From a phage: a stretch of 52,735 bases of DNA. The notes under the pieces are model-generated. The model did no database searches. It was not told the origin of the DNA and worked only from the letters and a program-made list of their open reading frames with translations. Shown here in pieces: positions 14,708-39,949 of the stretch. Both the position numbers and the translations under genes were made by a program. Location of the stretch: the sequence record PZ662386.1. One strand, 5' to 3'. Within the stretch, counting starts at the first letter, position 1. The number at the start of each line of letters is the position of its first letter.

Positions 14708-14725
14708 ACATTAGTTGAATATGTA
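14708..14725 (+). promoter_or_regulatory. degenerate copy of the conserved promoter-like motif
   Basis: ACATTAGTTGaATaTGtA matches the ACATTAGTTGGATGTGAA family in its 5' half; 24 nt upstream of the next gene. Confidence 0.25.
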
Positions 14726-23984: not shown

Positions 23985-24539
23985 ATGCTATCATTCAAAG
24001 TTCTTGCACTTCTGACAGCTTTAGTTCACATCAACGCCCCAGCTTCGGTTGGGGCAGTGAATTCTGCTATTACAGATTTTGCAAGTCATTCTTATTTAAA
24101 TGGAAGTCTGAAACTATCTTCTTCACAACGCAAAGAGCTAGAATGCTATACTAAAGTTATCTGGTATGAAGCTCGCGGAGAAGACAAACATGGAAAGATT
24201 CTGGTAGCTAATGTCGTCCGTAATAGAACAGAGTTCGGGAAGCCATTCGCTAACACCGTTTGTGATGTTGTCTATCAACGCAATCAATTTGCATGGACAC
24301 GAGAAGCAAAGAAGAAGAATGCTCAATGGAAGCATGTAGCAAAGATTAATTATGCCACAGAACAACAACAAGTTCTGGACACCATTAATGTTGCAATCTC
24401 TTTTGTATTATTTAATCAACCCTCTGTCACCAAAGCAACCCACTTTTGTACAGCATCGGAGAAGTGCAACTTCAAGAATGTTAAAGGTTTGGGACGTTAT
24501 GGTGGCCATAAATTCTATGAGTATCTAGGAAATCTGTAA
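23985..24539 (+). CDS. endolysin, SleB-like cell-wall hydrolase with N-terminal signal peptide
   Basis: N-terminal hydrophobic signal ([18 protein letters not shown]); SleB/Hydrolase_2-like [29 protein letters not shown]. Confidence 0.75.
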
Positions 24540-25639
24540 TGGCTTACACTACCTTTTCACAAACCAAGAATAACCAACTATTAGAACCAATGTTCTTTGG
24601 TCAGAACGTTAACGTTGCTCGATATGACCAACAGAAGTACAGCATCTTCGAGAAGTTAATCGAGAAGCAGTTATCTTTCTTTTGGCGACCTGAAGAGGTT
24701 GATGTTAGCCAGGACCGAATTGACTATGCTGGTCTGCCTGAATGCGAGAAGCACATCTTTACCAGCAATTTACGATACCAAATCCTGCTTGATTCCATTC
24801 AAGGACGTGGACCAACCACAGTTTTGCTGCCAATTGTGAGCATTCCTGAACTGGAAACTTGGATTGAAACTTGGTCATTCTCGGAGACAATTCACTCCCG
24901 TTCTTACACACATATTATTCGTAATATTGTTACAGACCCGAGTGTCATTTTCGACGAAATTGTGGAGAATGAGCATATTAAAATGCGTGCAATCGGCATA
25001 TCCCAATATTATGACGAACTTCAACACCTAACTTCCATGTGGCATCTGCATGAAGATGAAGTAGACCTTCGTGAGCTTAAGAAGAAGCTATATTTATGCC
25101 TCATGTCCATTAATGCACTGGAAGCAATCCGCTTTTATGTCAGCTTTGCTTGCTCATTTGCCTTCGCTGAACGCAAGTTAATGGAAGGAAATGCCAAGAT
25201 TATTCGCTTAATTGCTCGTGATGAAGCACTCCATTTGACTGGAACTCAACACATGTTGAATCTTCTTGCAAGCGGGGTTGATGACCCAGAAATGGCCGAA
25301 ATTGCCAAAGAATGCCGTCAAGAATGCCAAATAATGTTCGAAAATGTGGCCCAACAAGAGAAAGATTGGGCTGATTATTTGTTCAAAGATGGCTCAATGA
25401 TTGGCTTAAATAAGCAAATTCTGTGCGGATATGTCGAATATATCACAAATATTCGTATGCAAGCAGTTGGATTGGATGCTCCATTCAAAGGTGCCACTAA
25501 CCCGATTCCTTGGATTAACGCATGGTTGAATTCGGATGCTGTACAAGTTGCTCCACAGGAAACGGAGATTAGTTCGTACCTTGTCGGGCAGATTGACTCC
25601 GAAGTTGACACCAATGCTCTAGGCGGATTTGAACTATGA
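24539..25639 (+). CDS. nrdB: ribonucleotide reductase small subunit (class I beta)
   Basis: Iron-ligand motifs [16 protein letters not shown] and [13 protein letters not shown]; 366 aa. Confidence 0.9.
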
Positions 25640-25814
25640 TTGGATATGGTGAAGGCTGACGTTTGTCAGTTAATATGCGAGAAGAGATTCGATGCGTTAT
25701 CGTCGTTTCTCTTTGAGCTAGAATAAAACAAGTAAATTAAATATTTATTATTCCCAATATTGCTACAATATTGAGAGCAATATTAGGAATGCGTAAAGTT
25801 AAAACCAAATGGTA

Positions 25815-25871
25815 CATGGTCGGTCAACTGTACCTGGATAGAAATTCGTTCATGGTCGGTCAGCTGTATCT
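25815..25871 (+). repeat. two copies of a 21-bp direct repeat
   Basis: CATGGTCGGTCAACTGTACCT and CATGGTCGGTCAGCTGTATCT 36 bp apart. Confidence 0.6.
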
Positions 25872-25962
25872 CGCCGAAATTTGTTCGAACAGTTGTCTGA
25901 CTATGAAATAATTTTTTTTTTATAATTTTTTTTTTTATTTTCAATATTGCTACAGAATTAAT

Positions 25963-26040
25963 GAGACTAGAATTCGTAACAAAGCTACGAGACTCGAATT
26001 GTTACGATATTAACGAGACTCAATCTGTGACAATATTATA
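25963..26040 (+). repeat. three tandem 26-bp iteron-like repeats (GAGACT-NGAAT core)
   Basis: GAGACT at 25963, 25989, 26015 with 26-bp period; adjacent poly-T tracts at 25911-25943. Confidence 0.55.
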
Positions 26041-26218
26041 ATCTTATTTTTGGGCCAGCGGGGAGGGGAAGCCCAACGTCCTATCGGACTTAAAATACGG
26101 TCCCTACTCCAACTTTTTCCTACAGCCTATCGGCTTTCAAACAACACCAAGTTAGGCGCTTCGCTTATGGGTCAAGGTCAAAGTCTCCGTGCTGTTGTAA
26201 CAATGGCACAGGTTTGTG

Positions 26219-26236
26219 ATATTAGTTGGACGTGAA
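26219..26236 (+). promoter_or_regulatory. conserved promoter-like motif (candidate phage-RNAP promoter)
   Basis: ATATTAGTTGGACGTGAA, member of the ACATTAGTTGGATGTGAA family; 67 nt upstream of RNAP gene. Confidence 0.4.
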
Positions 26237-26302
26237 TTGTGTAATGGCTACGCTATTATAATCCGTTTCAGTTAAATCATACACAATCTTGGAGACTTAC
26301 AA

Positions 26303-28243
26303 ATGACTACTATCACCACTCAAACTATCAAATCCGTTGTTCCTGCTATCACTGCTCTGGTATACCGTGCCAAAGAGAAACAGAACTATATGCAGCCTCA
26401 GACTTGTGCTATTGCTGCCTTAGCCATCTTCAAGATGATGACGTCTTTCACTCGTGATGACGTTGTTCCTGCCATCGCGATGGTTGAACTGGCTTCTGCT
26501 TCTATTGCTGATGCCAACCGTTATAACAACGATTTGAAAGCAATGCACTATGTTGACCCAGCTATCAACCTCATTGGTCTGGCTAAGCACTTTGGCTTCA
26601 TCACCATGAACGAAGACAAGTCATTCCAACAGACTGACACATGGGTTGAACTGGTTACAACCAAAGACACCGCAGTGCCATTCACTGAGCGTGTTACATC
26701 TGAATCTCGTCGCAAGCCTTTCGTTAAAGGTGGCAAGGTTAAGCCATCTAAGACTCTGAAAGCTGCAATCGAATTCCTGCAAGATACTGAGTACCATGTG
26801 GAGACTGAGATGGTTCGCATCATCCAGTCCATGCTTGAGCAACGTACTTATGGTGGCTTGCAGATGCCAGAAGCAATCCAGACTGAACTCCATGTTTGGA
26901 ACAATGCTGTAGCAATGATGAATCAGGACACACTGTATTCTGACTACTTTGCTGATAACCGTGGTCGCCTGTATCATGTAGCATGTGCTGGTCCTAACCC
27001 ACAATCATCTGACTTTGCTCGTTGCTTGTATTCTCACAATGTTGAGAACATCGTTAAGAAGTTTAACGAAGATGGTTCTACTACCATTGCATACAATATG
27101 TTCATGGCAGAACTGGAAGACATTTCTGGTGGTGAATGGTGCACTGCTAAGCGTTTGACTTATGTTGCTCAGAATCCTGCTGGTTCACTTGCTCGCATGA
27201 TGAACATGCCTAAAGCTGAACGTCCTTCTAAGCCATTCACTTATGTTCGTCTGGCTCTGGATTGGTTCAAGTTTGAGACTACAGGTGAATGCGATTCTCG
27301 TGTAGGCTTTGGCTTAGATGCTAAATGCTCTGGTACTCAATATCTGGCATTCATTGCTGGCAATATGGAAATGGCTCGTGCAACAGGTCTGGTTGATTCT
27401 GAGACTAAAGCATCTGACCCATACCAGTTGAGTCTTCGTGAACTGTTGAAGCTGCTGGACAAGTCTTCAATGAAGCCATCTCCTGAAATCATGGAAGAGT
27501 TCTTGAATCCGAAAGCTGGTCGTAAGTTTATCAAAACTCCGTACATGGCTATTCAATACGGTGGTGGTAAAGCTGCATTAACTGGTTCTTCTGACTTCAT
27601 TAGCTACATGACAGAAGCTCTCCAGATTCCAGTTGAGAAAGCTGAGGCATTTGCTGAACTGTGTGTGGAAGCAATCCATAACGCATTGGGTGCCAAGATT
27701 AACATGTTCATCGAGAAAGCTGCTGATGCTGCATACAACCGTTGTGTTGAACTCAACAAAGAGTACATCACATACCGTCACACTGACGGTCAGGTTGTAA
27801 TGAAGCCTTGCTTCCCATCCCGTGAAATCTGTGAGGCATTCAGCATTCGTGTTGACTCTCAAACTCGTGTTATCTTTGGTCAGATTCAGGAGAATAAGCC
27901 TTGGACCATTCGTGAATCCAATCCAACTAAAGAAGAATTCAAGCGTACTTTCGTTGTTAACTACATTCAAGGTATTGACGCACTGGTTGCTCGTACTGTT
28001 GCAGTTAAAGCTAAAGAAGCTGGCCTTCGTGGTTTCACTTCAATCCATGATTGTTTCCGTTGCTGTTTGGCAGATGCTCCACGTATGATGGAAGTTATTC
28101 GTGCAGCATATGTTGAAATCTTTGTAACCAACAATCAATTCGAGAATCTGTCTAAGCAACTCGGTGGCATTCAGATGTATCATGAGAACATCGTAACCGA
28201 AGAGCTTCTGATGAGCGAACACGCTTACTACTTCTGTCAATAA
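26303..28243 (+). CDS. single-subunit RNA polymerase (T7-like, compact)
   Basis: T7 RNAP-like motifs DNRGRLY...NPQ, DAKCSGTQY, KTPYMAIQYGGG, SIHDCF; only 646 aa. Confidence 0.8.
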   Translation: MTTITTQTIKSVVPAITALVYRAKEKQNYMQPQTCAIAALAIFKMMTSFTRDDVVPAIAMVELASASIADANRYNNDLKAMHYVDPAINLIGLAKHFGFITMNEDKSFQQTDTWVELVTTKDTAVPFTERVTSESRRKPFVKGGKVKPSKTLKAAIEFLQDTEYHVETEMVRIIQSMLEQRTYGGLQMPEAIQTELHVWNNAVAMMNQDTLYSDYFADNRGRLYHVACAGPNPQSSDFARCLYSHNVENIVKKFNEDGSTTIAYNMFMAELEDISGGEWCTAKRLTYVAQNPAGSLARMMNMPKAERPSKPFTYVRLALDWFKFETTGECDSRVGFGLDAKCSGTQYLAFIAGNMEMARATGLVDSETKASDPYQLSLRELLKLLDKSSMKPSPEIMEEFLNPKAGRKFIKTPYMAIQYGGGKAALTGSSDFISYMTEALQIPVEKAEAFAELCVEAIHNALGAKINMFIEKAADAAYNRCVELNKEYITYRHTDGQVVMKPCFPSREICEAFSIRVDSQTRVIFGQIQENKPWTIRESNPTKEEFKRTFVVNYIQGIDALVARTVAVKAKEAGLRGFTSIHDCFRCCLADAPRMMEVIRAAYVEIFVTNNQFENLSKQLGGIQMYHENIVTEELLMSEHAYYFCQ

Positions 28244-28250
28244 GAGAAAC

Positions 28251-28294
28251 AGGGCTGTCATCGAAAGGTGATGGCCCTTTCTTTATTCTTTATT
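28251..28294 (+). terminator. rho-independent terminator after RNAP gene
   Basis: Imperfect GC stem (AGGGC...GATGGCCC) followed by TTTCTTTATTCTTTATT. Confidence 0.55.
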
Positions 28295-28334
28295 AAATAA
28301 ATCCTTTAATTCCCAATATTCGGACAATATTGTT

Positions 28335-29235
28335 GCATGTAATATTGTCCCGATATTCGACATTAGTTGGATGTGAAGTAAAAGAATACGGAGAAATATT
28401 CCGCATGTCATGTTGAATCATTCTAGAAACATTCAGCATGTCAGCTTTGAGTTACAGTGTTGTAATGATGTGGCAATCATTGAACTCCCTGGGAAGGCCA
28501 CCTACAGTTCCAGCAACCATGACACAGAGTAGGAATATCTATCCGAAACTTTGACTTCATCTGTAGCATGTTCAATTGCTCCAATATTGTTCCTTCTCCT
28601 ATTATCAAGGCCCACCCACAAGCCGGGAGATAACTTTAGCAAGACTGGAACTTTTGGACATGCTTCTTTCTTTCAATCAGAATTCGAAAGAAGAGAAGAA
28701 GTCGGACTAAGCCTCTCGTTTGCACGCAGAAGCCGCCCCGATTTTGAGCAACAAATATTGTGACAATTGCGTCGCAGTATGGCATGTAAATATTGCTACA
28801 AATTGGCATGTTGGAATGTGGCAGAATTGTTAGAGGACTAATCACCTCGAAGATACAATCGTCTACCAATCTGGCATGTTAATTTTGTAACAGTATTTGT
28901 GCCAATTTCGCATGTAATAGCTGTATCAGTAGTGACCCAATATTCTTGCAACCCGCATGAATACTGGCTTCCAGCCAAGCGAAGGCTTTATCATCGCATG
29001 TAATATTGTGACAATATTGGGATAAAACCCTTTATTTAAATCATTTAGTTTATTAATTAAATGGTCGGTTTTCTGTACATAGGTATTTAGCTGTTTGTGC
29101 CAAATACAAACAAGTTGGCTGCTTCTACAGAACTCCAGTGCTATAAATGTTCGTGCCAATCTGCTGCGATTTATCTCATTTGGCGGGGTAATATTGTATT
29201 AGATTGGCATGTCATTCTTTCGATTAGTTGCATGT
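28335..29235 (+). repeat. array of about 12 degenerate GCATGT(A)A(T)ATTG-type repeats
   Basis: GCATGT at 28335, 28403, 28436, 28566, 28782, 28806, 28874, 28910, 28996, 29207, 29230 plus a GCATGA variant at 28955; interspersed CAATATTG palindromes. Confidence 0.6.
28360..28377 (+). promoter_or_regulatory. conserved promoter-like motif
   Basis: ACATTAGTTGGATGTGAA exact consensus copy. Confidence 0.4.
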
Positions 29236-29238
29236 GAA
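29221..29238 (+). promoter_or_regulatory. conserved promoter-like motif (variant)
   Basis: CGATTAGTTGCATGTGAA; about 180 nt upstream of the first early ORF. Confidence 0.35.
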
Positions 29239-29419
29239 TAAGACCAAATCTCTGTAAATTCTGTGACAGATTTTAGAGAGATTATGTCTCCAAGCTAATC
29301 ATTGTAGTTCTTCGGCACTTAATGTGTCACATACTCCCTACAACTTTAAGGTGGATTGAGGTAAGACAAGACCTCCACAATCGTTCTGTAGGGAGTTTTC
29401 TTTAACTTGGGAGAATAAA

Positions 29420-29668
29420 ATGGATACTGTGACTAAAGCTGCTTACTTTAAAGACTTGTCAGATGGTCAAATATTTTCTATTCGCTCTGTAAAGTGGATT
29501 AAAGTAAATGAATCAGACAAGTACAATGCTGTAAAGTTCTTTGATTCAAGCAAGGCATGTACTTTTAGTGACAATATTGTTGTAAATATTGAAGTCGAAT
29601 TAGAGCCAGATGATTCAAATGATGAAATCATTCTGCGTAAAACTGTTGGATACACTAAAGGATTCTGA
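29420..29668 (+). CDS. hypothetical early protein
   Basis: 82-aa ORF with RBS; first of a tightly packed, overlap-coupled early gene block. Confidence 0.5.
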   Translation: MDTVTKAAYFKDLSDGQIFSIRSVKWIKVNESDKYNAVKFFDSSKACTFSDNIVVNIEVELEPDDSNDEIILRKTVGYTKGF

Positions 29669-31293: not shown

Positions 31294-31554
31294 ATGGCTA
31301 CCAAAACAGGCATGATGATTGTCCCAAGCCGTAATAACTCTTTAAGCGGCTTTACACCATATAAAATCTACGAAGTTATTTCTGGCACTGGTGAAGCAAA
31401 CCTGTCAGAAGTTGCTTTGAAGTTGGGCCGTATGGTCCACTCCGAAATCTCCTGTAACGTAGTTGATGATGAAGGTAAAATCCGTTTTGTAACAATGGAT
31501 TTCTTTCGTGAATTTAACCTAAAATCTGAATTAGGAGTTCTGTACCATGAATGA
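31294..31554 (+). CDS. hypothetical early protein
   Basis: 86-aa ORF, RBS AGGAG. Confidence 0.45.
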   Translation: MATKTGMMIVPSRNNSLSGFTPYKIYEVISGTGEANLSEVALKLGRMVHSEISCNVVDDEGKIRFVTMDFFREFNLKSELGVLYHE

Positions 31555-33519: not shown

Positions 33520-33537
33520 ACATTAGTTGGATGTGAG
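33520..33537 (+). promoter_or_regulatory. conserved promoter-like motif
   Basis: ACATTAGTTGGATGTGAG; 71 nt upstream of the SSB-tail gene. Confidence 0.4.
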
Positions 33538-37388: not shown

Positions 37389-37620
37389 TTTAAATATTGC
37401 TGAACTTGAGGCGGGATTGATTGTTCACCACCAGCCTCGAAACACTTTCTATCGTATTCTTGGGCCTACAAAGATTAAAACTCACTGCGGAAGTTGGGTG
37501 GATGGGTTTGCTTACCAAGAGGTGAAGAAGTACGGGGACCATACTTTCTTAAGTATTGATTCCTCTACTATCTACACACGACCGAAAGAGCTATTCGACT
37601 CAGACTGGAAAACACTATAG
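37381..37620 (+). CDS. hypothetical protein
   Basis: 79-aa ORF from ATG 37381 overlapping upstream stop. Confidence 0.35.
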   Translation: MRDLNIAELEAGLIVHHQPRNTFYRILGPTKIKTHCGSWVDGFAYQEVKKYGDHTFLSIDSSTIYTRPKELFDSDWKTL

Positions 37621-37689
37621 TTCCAGGCGGGTTTCTTCGAAGTGCCAAGCGGGTTTTGTACTCGCATTGGCCTTCGGCTTTAGTCTGAA

Positions 37690-37707
37690 ACATTAGTGGG
37701 ATTTGAT
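37690..37707 (+). promoter_or_regulatory. conserved promoter-like motif (variant)
   Basis: ACATTAGTGGGATTTGAT preceded by TCTGAAAC, as in other copies. Confidence 0.35.
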
Positions 37708-37830
37708 TCTGACCACTTAGGGAAGAAAGGCATTATACACTTGTCGCCAAACGGGTGTCAAGCACTTTCTTCATTTATTTTAATTTATTCTTATTATTCT
37801 TTTTGTTTGGAATATTGGAATAATTCTGAA

Positions 37831-37848
37831 ACATTAATTGGAATTGAA
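37831..37848 (+). promoter_or_regulatory. conserved promoter-like motif (variant)
   Basis: ACATTAATTGGAATTGAA preceded by TTCTGAAAC. Confidence 0.35.
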
Positions 37849-38002
37849 TTAGTGTAATTCTGTCTGTACTCTTTTCCACTAGCAATTGTAGAGGGAGTCC
37901 ACTGCAATAAGCGCAGCCTCAAACAACCAAGTCTGGACAACTTGGGAAGAGAGTACAGCACAAAATTACATTAGTTTGAATTGAAACAACATCAGATAAG
38001 AG

Positions 38003-38067
38003 CTTTGTAACTAGGTAGTCCGTCTGGTACCAAGACGTGTGAGAACGTTCGATTCGTTCTACAAAGC
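38003..38067 (+). ncRNA. tRNA-like element lacking a canonical D-arm
   Basis: Perfect 7-bp acceptor-like stem CTTTGTA/TACAAAG, 5-bp hairpin with 7-nt loop (CGTCT GGTACCA AGACG), and T-arm GAACG TTCGATT CGTTC. Confidence 0.3.
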
Positions 38068-38618
38068 TCTTTTCGATGGAATGTTTCCATCATATACATT
38101 TAACTTTTAACATAGGCCAAAGGGCCGGAATACTTATCCACAGAAAGCTATTCACTTGTTATAGGCGATGTATTGGGATGAATTGGAACTAAATAAGCAA
38201 GCTGTTAGGGCTGAATAATTAGAGGGTTATGCCTCATGCTTATGTTAGTCATTCGAAAATAGGTTTGTGCCACAAGCTGCTGGTGCTCTGAGGAAGTCGG
38301 ACAAACAGGGCTTAGAGTGGCATAATCCGCACAAAACCGCGCCACCAGCTATGCCAAAGCAGGTGGATTGGGTGAATGTATTGGGAAGGGTTGCAAAGCC
38401 TCTGTGACACGCCTGAGCCGCAAGGCGACGACACTCATGTGATTAGCGTATCGCACCCTAACGGGAGTAACCCTTCGCCAATGCAGTTATCCAGAATTGA
38501 CACAAACGGTAGGCAGTGGCCCGATTTTCGGCCTTCCTGCGCTACCCTGTGGCCTGTTCCTGGGCCAAAAGATGAGAAGAGAAGTCACAAACACTGAATC
38601 GAAAATTGGAGAGTTCCT

Positions 38619-39931: not shown

Positions 39932-39949
39932 ACATTAGTTGGATGTGGA
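39932..39949 (+). promoter_or_regulatory. conserved promoter-like motif
   Basis: ACATTAGTTGGATGTGGA preceded by TTCTGAAAC; 77 nt upstream of the acidic-protein gene. Confidence 0.4.

What the first reader, a model, noticed from the sequence alone, without database searches (positions are those of the whole stretch)
26303..28243. Unusually compact T7-like RNA polymerase (646 aa) with a shortened N-terminal domain
Catalytic motifs align with T7 RNAP (DNRGRLY, DAKCSGTQY, YMAIQYGGG, IHDCF), but the protein is ~240 residues shorter than T7 RNAP. From my recollection of the T7 sequence, most of the deficit is N-terminal to the DxRGRxY motif, in the promoter-binding region. That implies altered promoter recognition, consistent with the distinct motif family above.
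Basis: partly seen in the sequence, partly recalled or inferred. Interest (0 to 1): 0.55.

Follow-up and report, generated by a model that had tools for sequence, protein, structure and literature searches.

The report
Naturally compact phage RNA polymerase gene
This is the intact, already annotated single-subunit RNA polymerase gene of an ST32/phiEcoM-GJ1-type (Chaseviridae) coliphage. It really is about 240 residues shorter than T7 RNA polymerase, because several promoter-binding, thumb and finger elements are trimmed away, and this is a conserved family trait, not an error.

Summary
ORF 26303-28243 (+) encodes 646 aa with all T7-type catalytic motifs. It is 99.4% identical to ST32 gp1, annotated 'RNA polymerase'.

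It is neither truncated nor frameshifted. The 663 bp upstream is full of stops in every frame. More than 100 relatives, down to 35% identity, are mostly 604-670 aa long.

A profile alignment to the T7 family (E 1e-41) puts 203 of the 237 missing residues before the DxxGR motif:
- T7 residues 1-65 are absent.
- The AT-rich recognition loop is absent.
- Subdomain H falls from 55 to 13 residues.
- The intercalating hairpin falls from 16 to 7 residues.
- The thumb falls from 86 to 47 residues.
- A further 37 residues are missing from the fingers.

A 17-nt motif, ACATTAGTTGGATGTGA, occurs 9 times, always on the + strand and between genes. It is the likely cognate promoter.

The gene is known. Its minimal architecture is not discussed in the papers searched, and no biochemistry was found there. 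Interest is moderate.

The parts
26303..28243 (+). RNA polymerase CDS (646 aa plus stop), orthologue of ST32 gp1 / phiEcoM-GJ1 gp01
26291..26294 (+). Shine-Dalgarno GGAG, 8 nt before the ATG
   Evidence: Read from the sequence. The same SD is listed for ST32 ORF1 in PMC6266442 Table 2.
26303..26677 (+). Reduced N-terminal domain, aa 1-125. It stands in for T7 residues 66-~285; T7 residues 1-65 have no counterpart. Helices 6-27, 32-46, 57-73, 76-81 and 87-96, a beta-hairpin at 100-110, and helix 112-118.
26384..26395 (+). Four-residue turn (aa 28-31) where T7 has the AT-rich recognition loop (T7 93-101). The loop is absent.
   Evidence: None of the 9 T7 loop residues is aligned. The model goes from helix 6-27 straight into helix 32-46.
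26594..26635 (+). Short beta-hairpin (aa 98-111), positional homologue of the T7 intercalating hairpin (T7 230-245). It is 9 residues shorter and has a polar tip (NEDK).
   Evidence: Local hhalign of aa 93-193 to T7 220-365, E 1e-4, probability 57%. Strands 100-102 and 107-110 in both models.
26708..26752 (+). Conserved basic block RRKPFVKGGKVKPSK (aa 136-150), aligned with T7 ~291-303 (GRRPLALVRTHSKK). R136 is invariant.
   Evidence: Alignments A1 and A2; hhalign.
26786..26926 (+). Truncated thumb (aa 162-208; 47 residues against 86 in T7 326-411)
   Evidence: Segment table from hhalign. Only short helices 168-183, 190-193 and 196-205 in the model.
26954..26974 (+). DxxGR motif DNRGRLY (aa 218-224) = T7 D421-Y427
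   Evidence: D218, R220, R222 and Y224 are invariant in A1.
27308..27340 (+). Motif A, FGLDAKCSGTQ (aa 336-346). Catalytic D339 = T7 D537.
   Evidence: invariant in A1.
27521..27565 (+). Motif B, RKFIKTPYMAIQYGG (aa 407-421). R407, K411 and Y419 = T7 R627, K631 and Y639.
   Evidence: invariant in A1.
27812..27913 (+). Specificity-loop region (aa 504-537; four beta strands), retained at full length (31 against 32 residues in T7 739-770). Its residues differ at the T7 base-reading positions: T7 R746/N748/Q758 correspond to A512/S514/I524, and only R756 (R522) is kept.
   Evidence: hhalign mapping; strands 506-510, 513-516, 522-525 and 534-537.
28040..28060 (+). Motif C, SIHDCFR (aa 580-586). H582 and D583 = T7 H811 and D812.
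   Evidence: invariant in A1.
28223..28240 (+). C-terminal AYYFCQ. F644 = T7 F882 of the C-terminal FAFA.
   Evidence: F644 and C645 are nearly invariant.
28251..28288 (+). Intrinsic-terminator-like hairpin (12 bp stem, 6 G-C pairs, 4-nt loop) plus a T-rich tail, 8 nt after the RNAP stop codon
25640..26302 (+). Non-coding leader between the last gene (ribonucleotide reductase beta, 24539-25639) and the RNAP. It corresponds to the first 672 nt of the ST32 record, so it includes the left genome end. It is the presumed site of host-type early promoters.
   Evidence: Stops in all frames. ST32 places the RNAP at 673-2613 as ORF1. The sigma-70-like matches here are not above chance in the simple scan, so the early promoters are inferred only.
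26219..26235 (+). Candidate phage-RNAP promoter motif ATATTAGTTGGACGTGA, 67 nt upstream of the RNAP start codon
28360..28376 (+). Candidate phage promoter ACATTAGTTGGATGTGA (consensus copy), just after the RNAP terminator
29221..29237 (+). Candidate phage promoter CGATTAGTTGCATGTGA, ahead of the early small-gene block
33520..33536 (+). Candidate phage promoter ACATTAGTTGGATGTGA (intergenic)
37690..37706 (+). Candidate phage promoter ACATTAGTGGGATTTGA, first of three in the 37620-38376 ORF-poor stretch
37831..37847 (+). Candidate phage promoter ACATTAATTGGAATTGA
37968..37984 (+). Candidate phage promoter ACATTAGTTTGAATTGA
39932..39948 (+). Candidate phage promoter ACATTAGTTGGATGTGG (intergenic)
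14708..14724 (+). Candidate phage promoter ACATTAGTTGAATATGT, between the 1242-aa ORF and the next structural ORF

Best explanation
The ORF is the complete, functional single-subunit (T7-type) RNA polymerase of a Carltongylesvirus (family Chaseviridae; ST32/phiEcoM-GJ1 group). It is a naturally minimised member of the T7 RNAP family.

Shown:
- It has a full palm and fingers catalytic core with every catalytic residue conserved.
- It has a full-length specificity loop and the C-terminal aromatic 'foot'.
- It lacks T7 residues 1-65, the AT-rich recognition loop, nearly all of subdomain H, about half of the thumb and a finger surface insertion.
- It keeps only a shortened hairpin at the position of the intercalating hairpin.
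- The small size is ancestral to the whole clade. It is not due to a truncated or split gene.

Inferred:
- The gene is the first one behind the left genome end. Host RNA polymerase probably transcribes it early, and transcription probably stops at the strong hairpin terminator just after the gene.
- The enzyme then initiates at about 9 copies of a 17-bp promoter, ACATTAGTTGGATGTGA. All copies lie on the coding strand and between genes, including one upstream of its own gene.
- It probably reads this promoter mainly through its divergent specificity loop, with help from the residual helical/hairpin N-terminal domain and without the upstream minor-groove contact that T7 makes through its AT-rich loop.
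- I consider it somewhat more likely than not (about 0.55) that the enzyme is promoter-specific on its own. The missing subdomain H and short thumb predict a different, possibly less processive, initiation-to-elongation transition.
For: Identity and context:
- 99.4% identity to ST32 gp1, annotated RNA polymerase, with the same position as ORF1.
- PF00940 at 67 bits and phrog_414 at 1e-97, covering profile positions 154-816 only.

Intactness:
- Stops in all upstream frames.
- 119 homologues, mostly 604-670 aa, down to 35% identity.
- The same gene order in six distant contigs: lysis genes, gap, RNAP, gap.

Architecture:
- Global profile-profile alignment to 10 T7-family enzymes, E 1e-41, with a segment-by-segment length table and catalytic residue matches.
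- The A1 profile hits T7 RNAP in PDB at 1.7e-17 over T7 317-850.
- Local alignment of aa 93-193 to T7 220-365, E 1e-4 and probability 57%, places the hairpin at the intercalating-hairpin position.

No separate module:
- HMMs of the T7-family N-terminal domain, residues 1-70, thumb and subdomain H find nothing significant among 616 window ORFs.
- No N4 gp1 or gp2 homologues.

Promoter:
- 9 matches against 0.19 expected, all on the + strand.
- The PWM scan gives 9 sites at 21.8 bits or more, then drops to 14.2, which is within the range of the shuffled controls (maxima 7.1-17.0).
- The same motif occurs 6 times in the first 8.6 kb of ST32.
- In a Hafnia prophage whose RNAP is 53% identical, about five to seven copies fit CATTAGTTGrrAGTGAA, including one upstream of its RNAP.
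- Related variants lie in intergenic positions of more distant relatives.
- A terminator-like hairpin lies at 28251-28278.
Against: - No experiment exists for any member of this clade in the literature searched. The ICTV profile states that Chaseviridae promoters have not been identified (PMC12842549). Activity, start sites and self-sufficiency are therefore all inferred.
- The alignment of aa 1-92 to T7 66-~210 is not significant on its own (E 0.36-0.49). 'AT-rich loop deleted' therefore rests on a forced global alignment plus the model's helix-turn-helix at that place.
- The hairpin tip is polar and not conserved in the family, so its intercalating role is doubtful.
- The closest known minimal enzyme, N4 RNAPII, also has a truncated N-terminal domain and thumb. 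It is not promoter-specific alone and needs gp1 and gp2 (PMC4496689).
- Only one strong motif copy lies in the roughly 27 kb of late structural genes. The motif cannot explain all late transcription unless transcripts are very long or weaker sites exist.
- Sigma-70-like matches upstream of the gene are not above chance in the simple scan.
Confidence: 0.75

Rival explanations
1. Cofactor-dependent minimal polymerase. Like N4 RNAPII or the mitochondrial enzymes, the trimmed enzyme cannot find or melt promoters alone. One of the many small early phage proteins, or a host factor, would supply promoter binding or melting, and the 17-nt motif would be read wholly or partly by that factor.
For: - N4 RNAPII (269 + 404 aa) has the same kind of truncated N-terminal domain and thumb and needs gp1 and gp2 (PMC4496689).
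- The AT-rich loop is absent and the hairpin is short with a non-conserved polar tip.
- More than 20 small ORFs of unknown function follow the RNAP gene.
Against: - The specificity loop is retained at full length, so the main base-reading element of T7-type enzymes is there.
- No homologues of N4 gp1 or gp2 were found.
- By profile the enzyme is much closer to T7 RNAP (1.7e-17) than to N4 RNAPII gp16 (3.3e-5).
- A long, well-defined 17-nt motif resembles T7-type promoters more than the minimal AT-rich -7..+2 promoter of N4 RNAPII.
- No conserved partner gene lies next to the RNAP in distant relatives.
Confidence: 0.3
2. Domain replacement. The first ~120 residues are not a trimmed T7-type promoter-binding domain. 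They are an unrelated winged-helix DNA-binding domain that replaced it, and promoter recognition upstream of the specificity-loop contacts is done by a winged-helix recognition helix.
For: - The same winged-helix hits appear with the whole model.
- aa 1-92 have no significant sequence match to the T7-family N-terminal domain.
- The domain profile finds nothing outside this clade.
Against: - All the winged-helix scores are modest. Foldseek finds nothing below E 0.1, with TM about 0.3.
- The 'wing' hairpin and the helix before it fall inside the segment that does align to T7 220-365 (E 1e-4).
- Independent local and global alignments both put aa 4-69 on T7 69-146 in the same register.
- The two readings may not be exclusive: a stripped promoter-binding domain core may simply look winged-helix-like.
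Confidence: 0.2
3. Split enzyme. The missing N-terminal or thumb modules are encoded by a separate gene elsewhere in the genome and assemble with this chain, as in the heterodimeric N4 RNAPII.
For: There is precedent in N4 gp15 and gp16. Many window ORFs have no assigned function.
Against: - This single chain already covers the regions equivalent to both gp15 and gp16 (T7 66-883).
- Most missing pieces are internal deletions, not a detachable block.
- HMMs of T7-family residues 1-70, 1-325, the thumb and subdomain H find no window ORF. The best hit is a 32-residue match at E 0.014, 10 bits, below inclusion.
- tblastn with T7 RNAP finds only the RNAP gene itself.
- The upstream DNA is non-coding.
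Confidence: 0.04
4. Annotation artefact. The true protein is full length (~880 aa), and the short ORF results from a mis-called start, a sequencing frameshift or a pseudogene.
For: Only the raw size difference from T7. One database cluster representative (P0001) is 704 aa.
Against: - There are stops in all three frames throughout the 663 bp upstream.
- More than 100 independent homologues from isolates and metagenomes have the same length.
- The AF2 model is compact and confident from residue 6 onwards.
- The 58-aa extension of P0001 has no counterpart in this window and no RNAP similarity.
- The longer variants (757-901 aa) carry low-complexity or unrelated N-terminal additions, not a T7-type N-terminal domain.
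Confidence: 0.01

Closest known systems
Chaseviridae RNA polymerase (Escherichia phage ST32 gp1, phiEcoM-GJ1 gp01; also Erwinia phage vB_EamM-Y2 and Pectobacterium phage PP101)
   Same: It is the same gene. Identity is 99.4% to ST32 gp1 and 91.5% to GJ1, with the same 646-aa length. It is the first gene after the genome end, with ribonucleotide reductase beta as the last gene.
   Different: Nothing substantive. The papers searched call it a 'large' or 'podovirus-like' single-subunit RNAP and do not comment on its reduced architecture.
T7 RNA polymerase (883 aa; Autographiviridae type enzyme)
   Different: 237 residues shorter. It has no residues 1-65, no AT-rich recognition loop and almost no subdomain H, a half-length thumb, a shorter hairpin and a 37-residue shorter fingers domain. 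Identity is about 17-20%. Three of the four positions aligned to the T7 base-reading residues R746, N748, R756 and Q758 differ. The phage is a myovirus of 53 kb.
N4 RNAPII (gp15 269 aa + gp16 404 aa = 673 aa)
   Different: N4 RNAPII is a heterodimer, binds only single-stranded DNA and needs gp1 and gp2. Its promoter is a short AT-rich -7..+2 element. The enzyme here is a single chain and even smaller. It is closer in sequence to T7 (1.7e-17 against 3.3e-5). It has no gp1 or gp2 homologues nearby and is associated with a 17-nt motif.
Mitochondrial RNA polymerases (yeast Rpo41, human POLRMT)
   Different: The mitochondrial enzymes are much larger (about 1200-1350 aa), with PPR and N-terminal extensions, and depend on Mtf1 or TFB2M/TFAM. 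Sequence similarity is marginal (E about 0.01-0.05).
Xp10-type (Xipdecavirus) phage RNAP, e.g. Xanthomonas phage NP1 gp34 (746 aa)
   Same: The shortest non-Chaseviridae single-chain phage RNAP among those fetched, and one of the nearest outside relatives (22% identity over aa 132-621).
   Different: It is still 100 aa longer. Similarity does not extend into the first ~130 residues.

Membership tests
T7-like single-subunit DNA-dependent RNA polymerase (Pfam PF00940) | Significant match to the family profile above the curated threshold | tested here: met
   PF00940 at 67.3 bits against a cut-off of 22, E 1.5e-18. The A1 profile hits T7 RNAP chains at 1.7e-17. hhalign to the T7 family gives E 1e-41.
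T7-like single-subunit DNA-dependent RNA polymerase (Pfam PF00940) | Catalytic motifs DxxGR, A (Asp), B (R/K/Y) and C (HD) with conserved residues | tested here: met
   D218/R220/R222/Y224, D339, R407/K411/Y419 and H582/D583 align to T7 D421/R423/R425/Y427, D537, R627/K631/Y639 and H811/D812. All are invariant in 61 homologues.
T7-like single-subunit DNA-dependent RNA polymerase (Pfam PF00940) | Right-hand pol I-like fold shared with T7 and mitochondrial RNAPs | tested here: met
T7-like single-subunit DNA-dependent RNA polymerase (Pfam PF00940) | Specificity loop (beta-hairpin inserted in the fingers, T7 739-770) | tested here: met
   aa 504-534 align to T7 739-770 (31 against 32 residues). 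The model has four strands at 506-537. The base-reading residues differ from T7.
T7-like single-subunit DNA-dependent RNA polymerase (Pfam PF00940) | AT-rich recognition loop in the N-terminal domain (T7 93-101) | tested here: not met
   None of the 9 residues is aligned. The model has only a 4-residue turn between helices 6-27 and 32-46. Caveat: this part of the alignment is not significant on its own. This feature defines the T7 subgroup's mode of promoter binding, not family membership.
T7-like single-subunit DNA-dependent RNA polymerase (Pfam PF00940) | Intercalating beta-hairpin (T7 230-245) | tested here: inconclusive
   A hairpin at aa 100-110 lies at the homologous position (local hhalign E 1e-4). 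It is 9 residues shorter, has a polar NEDK tip and varies within the family.
T7-like single-subunit DNA-dependent RNA polymerase (Pfam PF00940) | Full-length thumb (T7 326-411) and refolding subdomain H (T7 152-205) | tested here: not met
   The thumb has 47 residues against 86, and subdomain H has 13 against 55. These are features of T7 itself. N4 RNAPII, an accepted family member, also has a truncated thumb.
T7-like single-subunit DNA-dependent RNA polymerase (Pfam PF00940) | Promoter-specific, rifampicin-resistant RNA synthesis | not testable with these tools
   No biochemical or transcript-mapping data for any Chaseviridae RNAP were found in the papers searched.
Chaseviridae (Carltongylesvirus) RNAP orthologue group | High identity to ST32 gp1 / GJ1 gp01 and the same genomic position (first gene, all genes on one strand, ~53 kb genome) | tested here: met
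   99.4% identity to ST32 and 91.5% to GJ1. ST32 annotation. All long ORFs are on the + strand in a 52.7-kb window.
N4 RNAPII-type minimal heterodimeric RNAP | Two separately encoded subunits splitting the polymerase between the DxxGR motif and motif A | tested here: not met
   One uninterrupted 646-aa ORF spans T7 66-883.
N4 RNAPII-type minimal heterodimeric RNAP | Truncated N-terminal domain and thumb | tested here: met
   compared with the description in PMC4496689. This is a resemblance in architecture, not evidence of membership.
N4 RNAPII-type minimal heterodimeric RNAP | Presence of the cofactors gp1 and gp2 (ssDNA-binding recruiter) | tested here: not met
   tblastn of N4 gp1 and gp2 against the window gives nothing better than E 2.1. 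Highly diverged analogues cannot be excluded.
Winged-helix DNA-binding domain (for aa ~30-118) | H1-H2-H3 plus a beta-hairpin wing, with significant structural similarity to known winged-helix domains | tested here: inconclusive

The most novel reading that the evidence does not exclude
The Chaseviridae enzyme is a self-sufficient, single-chain, 73-kDa promoter-specific RNA polymerase. That would make it the smallest of its kind, smaller than the N4 RNAPII heterodimer. It would recognise a 17-bp promoter with no AT-rich recognition loop. It would also complete the initiation-to-elongation transition with no subdomain H and only half a thumb. Its residual N-terminal domain would be a winged-helix-like module whose 'wing' is the intercalating hairpin, hinting at how the T7 promoter-binding domain is built or arose. 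The motif ACATTAGTTGGATGTGA would then be the so far unidentified Chaseviridae promoter.
Probability: 0.35. Interest if true: 0.6.

Novelty: already known. Interest (0 to 1): 0.35.

Why it matters
The gene itself is textbook content for this phage family. Finding it in the window adds nothing new.

What is not in the papers searched is how far this family's polymerase is reduced. It is a single 646-aa chain that keeps the catalytic core and the specificity loop. It drops the AT-rich loop, subdomain H, half of the thumb and the first 65 residues of T7 RNAP. In T7, those elements are held to be needed for upstream promoter binding, for building the RNA exit path during promoter escape, and for processivity.

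If the enzyme is active and specific on its own, it sets a new lower bound for a promoter-specific single-subunit RNAP. It would also be a compact orthogonal transcription tool.

Tried and rejected
- **Upstream extension or frameshift.** I translated all three frames of 25640-26302 and found only stops. Rejected.
- **Hidden N-terminal module elsewhere.** HMMs of T7-family residues 1-70, 1-325, the thumb and subdomain H were run against 616 stop-to-stop ORFs. The only hit was a 32-residue match at E 0.014 in the 86-aa ORF 31294-31554, below the inclusion threshold. I treat it as chance.
- **N4-type cofactors.** tblastn with N4 gp1, gp2, gp15 and gp16 gave nothing.
- **Conserved neighbour gene as cofactor.** Six distant contigs share no annotated partner next to the RNAP, only a gene-free gap.
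- **The 704-aa cluster representative P0001 as evidence of a longer form.** Its 58-aa extension is absent from this window and unrelated to RNAPs.
- **Rfam scan of 25500-29600** for a structured RNA around the gene: nothing.
- **Sigma-70 promoter scan upstream of the gene:** not above the shuffled expectation, so host-promoter use stays an inference.
- **Foldseek of the N-terminal model against PDB:** no significant match. The winged-helix reading is therefore kept only as a weak rival.
- **Literature searches** for biochemical work, or for any remark on the small size of this enzyme: none found. The original 2008 phiEcoM-GJ1 paper is not in the library.
Full report
**1. What is at the coordinates**

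The window has a single long ORF at 26303..28243 on the + strand, with an ATG start and 646 codons. A GGAG ribosome-binding site precedes it by 8 nt. Pfam PF00940 (DNA-dependent RNA polymerase) matches at 67.3 bits against a cut-off of 22. PHROG 414 ('RNA polymerase') matches at 1e-97, but residues 16-645 cover only profile positions 154-816 of 816. T7 RNAP is 883 aa, so the deficit is 237 residues. The DxxGR aspartate is residue 218 here and 421 in T7, so 203 of the 237 missing residues lie N-terminal to that motif.

**2. Where the window comes from**

tblastn against annotated phage genomes gives 99.4% identity over the full length to gp1 of Escherichia phage ST32. It gives 91.5% to gp01 of phiEcoM-GJ1, 66-77% to phages of Erwinia, Pantoea, Pectobacterium and Proteus, and 33-37% to phages of Aeromonas, Shewanella and Vibrio. 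Nearly all of these genes are annotated 'RNA polymerase'. The window is therefore a circularly permuted copy of a Carltongylesvirus genome (family Chaseviridae).

In ST32 the gene is ORF1 at 673-2613, right behind the left genome end. Table 2 of the ST32 paper already lists it as 646 aa (PMC6266442). [quoted passage not shown] None of the papers I could read comments on the small size or reports any biochemistry. The 2008 phiEcoM-GJ1 paper is not held in the library.

**3. Is the short length an artefact?**

No.
- The 663 bp between the preceding gene (ribonucleotide reductase beta, ending at 25639) and the ATG have many stops in all three + frames.
- A search of 5.8 billion proteins returned 119 homologues down to 35% identity. 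Nearly all are 604-670 aa.
- The few longer ones (704, 757, 811 and 901 aa) carry Asn/Thr-rich, low-complexity or unrelated N-terminal additions, not a T7-type N-terminal domain.
- The 58-aa extension of the 704-aa representative has no counterpart in this window.
- Six contigs carrying distant family members show the same arrangement: late and lysis genes, a gap of about 0.5 kb, the RNAP, then a gene-free gap (0.9-1.6 kb in five of the six contigs, about 0.2 kb in the sixth) and small early genes. No upstream ORF could supply a missing module.

**4. What exactly is missing**

I built a 10-member alignment of T7-family enzymes of 746-886 aa: T7, Ralstonia WM2, Roseobacter CRP-114, Pseudomonas Njord, a phiKMV-type phage, Acinetobacter Pipo, KP34, Xanthomonas NP1, Pelagibacter Ran and Alteromonas H4/4. 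I compared it with a 61-member alignment of the compact family (A1). The global profile-profile alignment has E 1e-41 and maps residues 1-645 onto T7 66-883. T7 domain limits below are from the published T7 structures and are my own knowledge.

| T7 segment | T7 residues | Residues here |
|---|---|---|
| 1-65 | 65 | 0 |
| 66-92 | 27 | 27 |
| AT-rich recognition loop, 93-101 | 9 | 0 |
| 102-150 | 49 | 42 |
| 151-205 (subdomain H) | 55 | 13 |
| 206-229 | 24 | 20 |
| Intercalating hairpin, 230-245 | 16 | 7 |
| 246-325 | 80 | 52 |
| Thumb, 326-411 | 86 | 47 |
| N-terminal palm | 142 | 147 |
| Fingers, 554-738 | 185 | 148 |
| Specificity loop, 739-770 | 32 | 31 |
| C-terminal palm | 99 | 89 |

The catalytic residues all match: D537=D339, R627=R407, K631=K411, Y639=Y419, H811/D812=H582/D583 and F882=F644. 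They are invariant in the family.

So the deficit is not one missing block. It consists of a missing N-terminal extension plus a series of internal deletions that remove the peripheral elements of the N-terminal domain, the thumb and the fingers.

**5. How reliable is the N-terminal part of that map?**

- When the catalytic region is excluded, residues 93-193 still align locally to T7 220-365 with E 1e-4, though at only 57% probability. This segment contains the helix before the hairpin, the hairpin itself, the RRxP...VK block and the 'QxTxWxIN' block. The hairpin at residues 100-110 is therefore the positional homologue of the intercalating hairpin.
- Residues 4-69 align to T7 69-146 in the same register in two independent local runs and in the global run. 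That alignment is not significant on its own (E 0.36-0.49).
- The statement 'the AT-rich loop is absent' thus rests on this register plus the structure model, which has only a four-residue turn between helices 6-27 and 32-46.

**6. Structure**

- family-A DNA polymerases below that.

A profile of this domain, searched against 1.84 billion representative proteins, found only 27 matches. Their lengths (roughly 600-900 aa, or short pieces) are consistent with polymerases of this clade or fragments of them, though I did not annotate them individually.

My reading is that the N-terminal domain is a stripped core of the T7-type promoter-binding domain. With the large insertions gone, it has a helix-helix-helix-hairpin topology that resembles a winged helix, and the 'wing' is the intercalating-hairpin homologue. 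A true replacement by a foreign winged-helix domain cannot be excluded (about 0.2).

**7. Is the missing material supplied in trans?**

- HMMs built from T7-family residues 1-70, 1-325, the thumb and subdomain H were run with all filters off against all 616 stop-to-stop ORFs of 40 aa or more in the window. The only hit was a 32-residue, 10-bit match at E 0.014, below inclusion, in an 86-aa early ORF.
- tblastn with T7 RNAP hits only the RNAP gene. N4 gp1, gp2, gp15 and gp16 hit nothing.
- The chain already spans the regions equivalent to both subunits of N4 RNAPII.
- A split enzyme is therefore very unlikely. A non-homologous cofactor remains possible.

**8. Cognate promoter candidate**

- The motif ACATTAGTTGGATGTGA occurs 9 times with 3 mismatches or fewer, against 0.19 expected by chance. 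All copies are on the + strand and lie between ORFs.
- A weight-matrix scan separates these nine sites (21.8-29.4 bits) from the next best (14.2 bits). That next score is within the range reached by shuffled sequence, whose maxima are 7.1-17.0.
- Conservation spans about 17-18 nt, with no conserved AT-rich part upstream.
- One copy lies 67 nt before the RNAP start codon, one just after its terminator, and most of the others within the first 15 kb of the genome map. Only one strong copy lies among the late structural genes.
- The same motif occurs six times in the first 8.6 kb of ST32.
- In an integrated relative in Hafnia alvei, whose RNAP is 53% identical, about five to seven copies fit CATTAGTTGrrAGTGAA, again with one copy before the RNAP gene.
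- More distant relatives have related variants in intergenic positions: ATTAGCTGAGkTGrA, and TA(G/C)TTGGkTTGGAArTG.
- This is the behaviour expected of a polymerase-specific promoter that drifts together with its enzyme. The PP101 authors predicted eight consensus promoters in that phage on similar grounds (PMC6989608).
- Three of the four residues aligned to T7's base-reading specificity-loop positions differ: R746/N748/Q758 correspond to A/S/I, and only R756 is kept.

**9. Proposed mechanism**

Shown:
- The polymerase is intact and catalytically complete.
- It keeps the specificity loop.
- It lacks the AT-rich loop, subdomain H, half of the thumb and T7 residues 1-65.
- A conserved 17-nt motif lies on one strand in intergenic positions.
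- A 12-bp hairpin terminator lies 8 nt after the stop codon.

Inferred:
- Host RNAP transcribes the gene from the leader at the left genome end. The simple sigma-70 scan there is not above chance.
- The phage enzyme then initiates at the motif copies, reading them mainly through the specificity loop with help from the residual N-terminal domain.
- Lacking the AT-rich loop, it makes no T7-style minor-groove contact at about -17 to -13. That fits the shorter conserved stretch.
- Lacking subdomain H and much of the thumb, its promoter escape and the stability of its elongation complex must be organised differently from T7.

I put about 0.55 on the enzyme being self-sufficient and about 0.3 on it needing a factor. 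N4 RNAPII has a similarly truncated N-terminal domain and thumb and needs gp1 and gp2 (PMC4496689).

**10. Comparison and novelty**

[quoted passage not shown] Within it, it belongs to the Chaseviridae orthologue group by identity and synteny. It resembles N4 RNAPII in being minimal, but it fails that group's defining feature of two subunits, and by profile it is much closer to T7 (1.7e-17 against 3.3e-5). At 646 aa in one chain it is smaller than N4 RNAPII (673 aa in two chains). It is 100 aa shorter than the shortest other phage enzyme I fetched, the Xp10-type at 746 aa.

Because the gene has been published and annotated for this very phage group since 2008, I classify the finding as already known. 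The architectural dissection and the promoter candidate are refinements that make an open question testable, so interest is moderate (0.35).

Noticed in passing
window 28244-29420 (equivalents: L001 2847-3958; L013 6891-7779; L015 7275-8465; L017 9948-11504; L018 9900-10791): A gene-free stretch of about 0.9-1.6 kb follows the RNAP gene in this phage and in four of the five distant relatives examined; in the fifth (L014) the gap is only about 0.2 kb. In this window it holds 12 of the window's 35 GCATGT hexamers, 11 of them on the + strand, where about 0.7 would be expected. It also holds 11 AATATT, mostly as ~20-nt units such as TGGCATGTAATATTGTGAC. ST32 has the same array. The Nefertitivirinae-like relatives instead repeat TTGAATC 9-12 times, and the Hafnia element repeats TTAGTTG. 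Two candidate phage promoters lie inside the region. It looks like an iteron or origin-type array, or a regulator-binding array. From my own knowledge, T7's primary replication origin also lies just after gene 1, with two phage promoters.
   Followed up: partly
window 14708, 26219, 28360, 29221, 33520, 37690, 37831, 37968, 39932 (17 nt each, + strand); a weaker variant at 196: This is the 17-nt motif family ACATTAGTTGGATGTGA: 9 copies against 0.19 expected, all between ORFs. It is conserved in ST32 and in a Hafnia prophage, and occurs in variant form in more distant relatives. It is a strong candidate for the Chaseviridae phage promoter, which the ICTV profile says has not been identified. Only one strong copy lies in the ~27 kb of late genes.
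   Followed up: partly
L017 (Hafnia alvei chromosome NJFP02000002.1, 2780075-2798021) and L018 (Logan SRR28603075 contig, 76.6 kb): Compact RNAPs of this family (648 and 632 aa) occur in elements that look integrated. In Hafnia the order is host genes, integrase, holin, hydrolase, RNAP, gap, small genes and ArdA, inside a 4.8-Mb contig. In L018 a phage integrase and a host AhpC gene lie next to the early region. The ICTV profile describes Chaseviridae as lytic, so these may be temperate relatives that carry a single-subunit RNAP.
   Followed up: no
window 25807-25835 and 25843-25871 (a related copy near 29056-29080; ST32 L001 168, 204, 3589): There are two tandem 29-nt repeats, AAATGGTACATGGTCGGTCAaCTGTACCT, 36 nt apart in the leader upstream of the RNAP. 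Each has a palindromic GTACA...TGTAC frame. A third, more diverged copy lies in the non-coding region after the RNAP. They may be a protein-binding site at the genome end.
   Followed up: no
window 25744-25772, 25931-25959, 28303-28331 and further AATATTGTGACAATATT-type palindromes (28989-29018): Elements of the type TTCCCAATATTGCTACAATATT recur in both non-coding regions that flank the RNAP gene. By eye several resemble -35/-10 pairs, for example TTGCTA-N17-TAGAAT at about 25946-25974. The simple sigma-70 scan is not above chance there.
   Followed up: partly
window 28251-28288: A strong intrinsic-terminator-like hairpin (12 bp stem, AGGGCTGTCATC/GATGGCCCT arms) with a T-rich tail lies 8 nt after the RNAP stop codon. 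This suggests that early transcription of the RNAP gene is insulated from downstream genes.
   Followed up: no
proteins P0092 (901 aa), P0115 (811 aa), P0113/P0121 (757 aa); locus L015 5001-7274: A few family members have 110-215 extra N-terminal residues: an Asn/Thr-rich low-complexity start followed by a segment that P0113 and P0115 appear to share. It is not a T7-type N-terminal domain. I could not tell whether it is a real fused accessory domain or an over-extended gene call.
   Followed up: no
window 25903-25942: Two long T runs (11 T each), separated by ATAA, lie in the leader between the direct repeats and the next AATATTGCTACA element.
   Followed up: no
window 31294-31554 (+), 86-aa early ORF: This ORF has a marginal 32-residue similarity (E 0.014, 10 bits, below inclusion) to the T7-family N-terminal domain profile around T7 ~130-160. 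It is most likely chance. I record it because it is the only hit in the search for a trans-encoded N-terminal module.
   Followed up: partly
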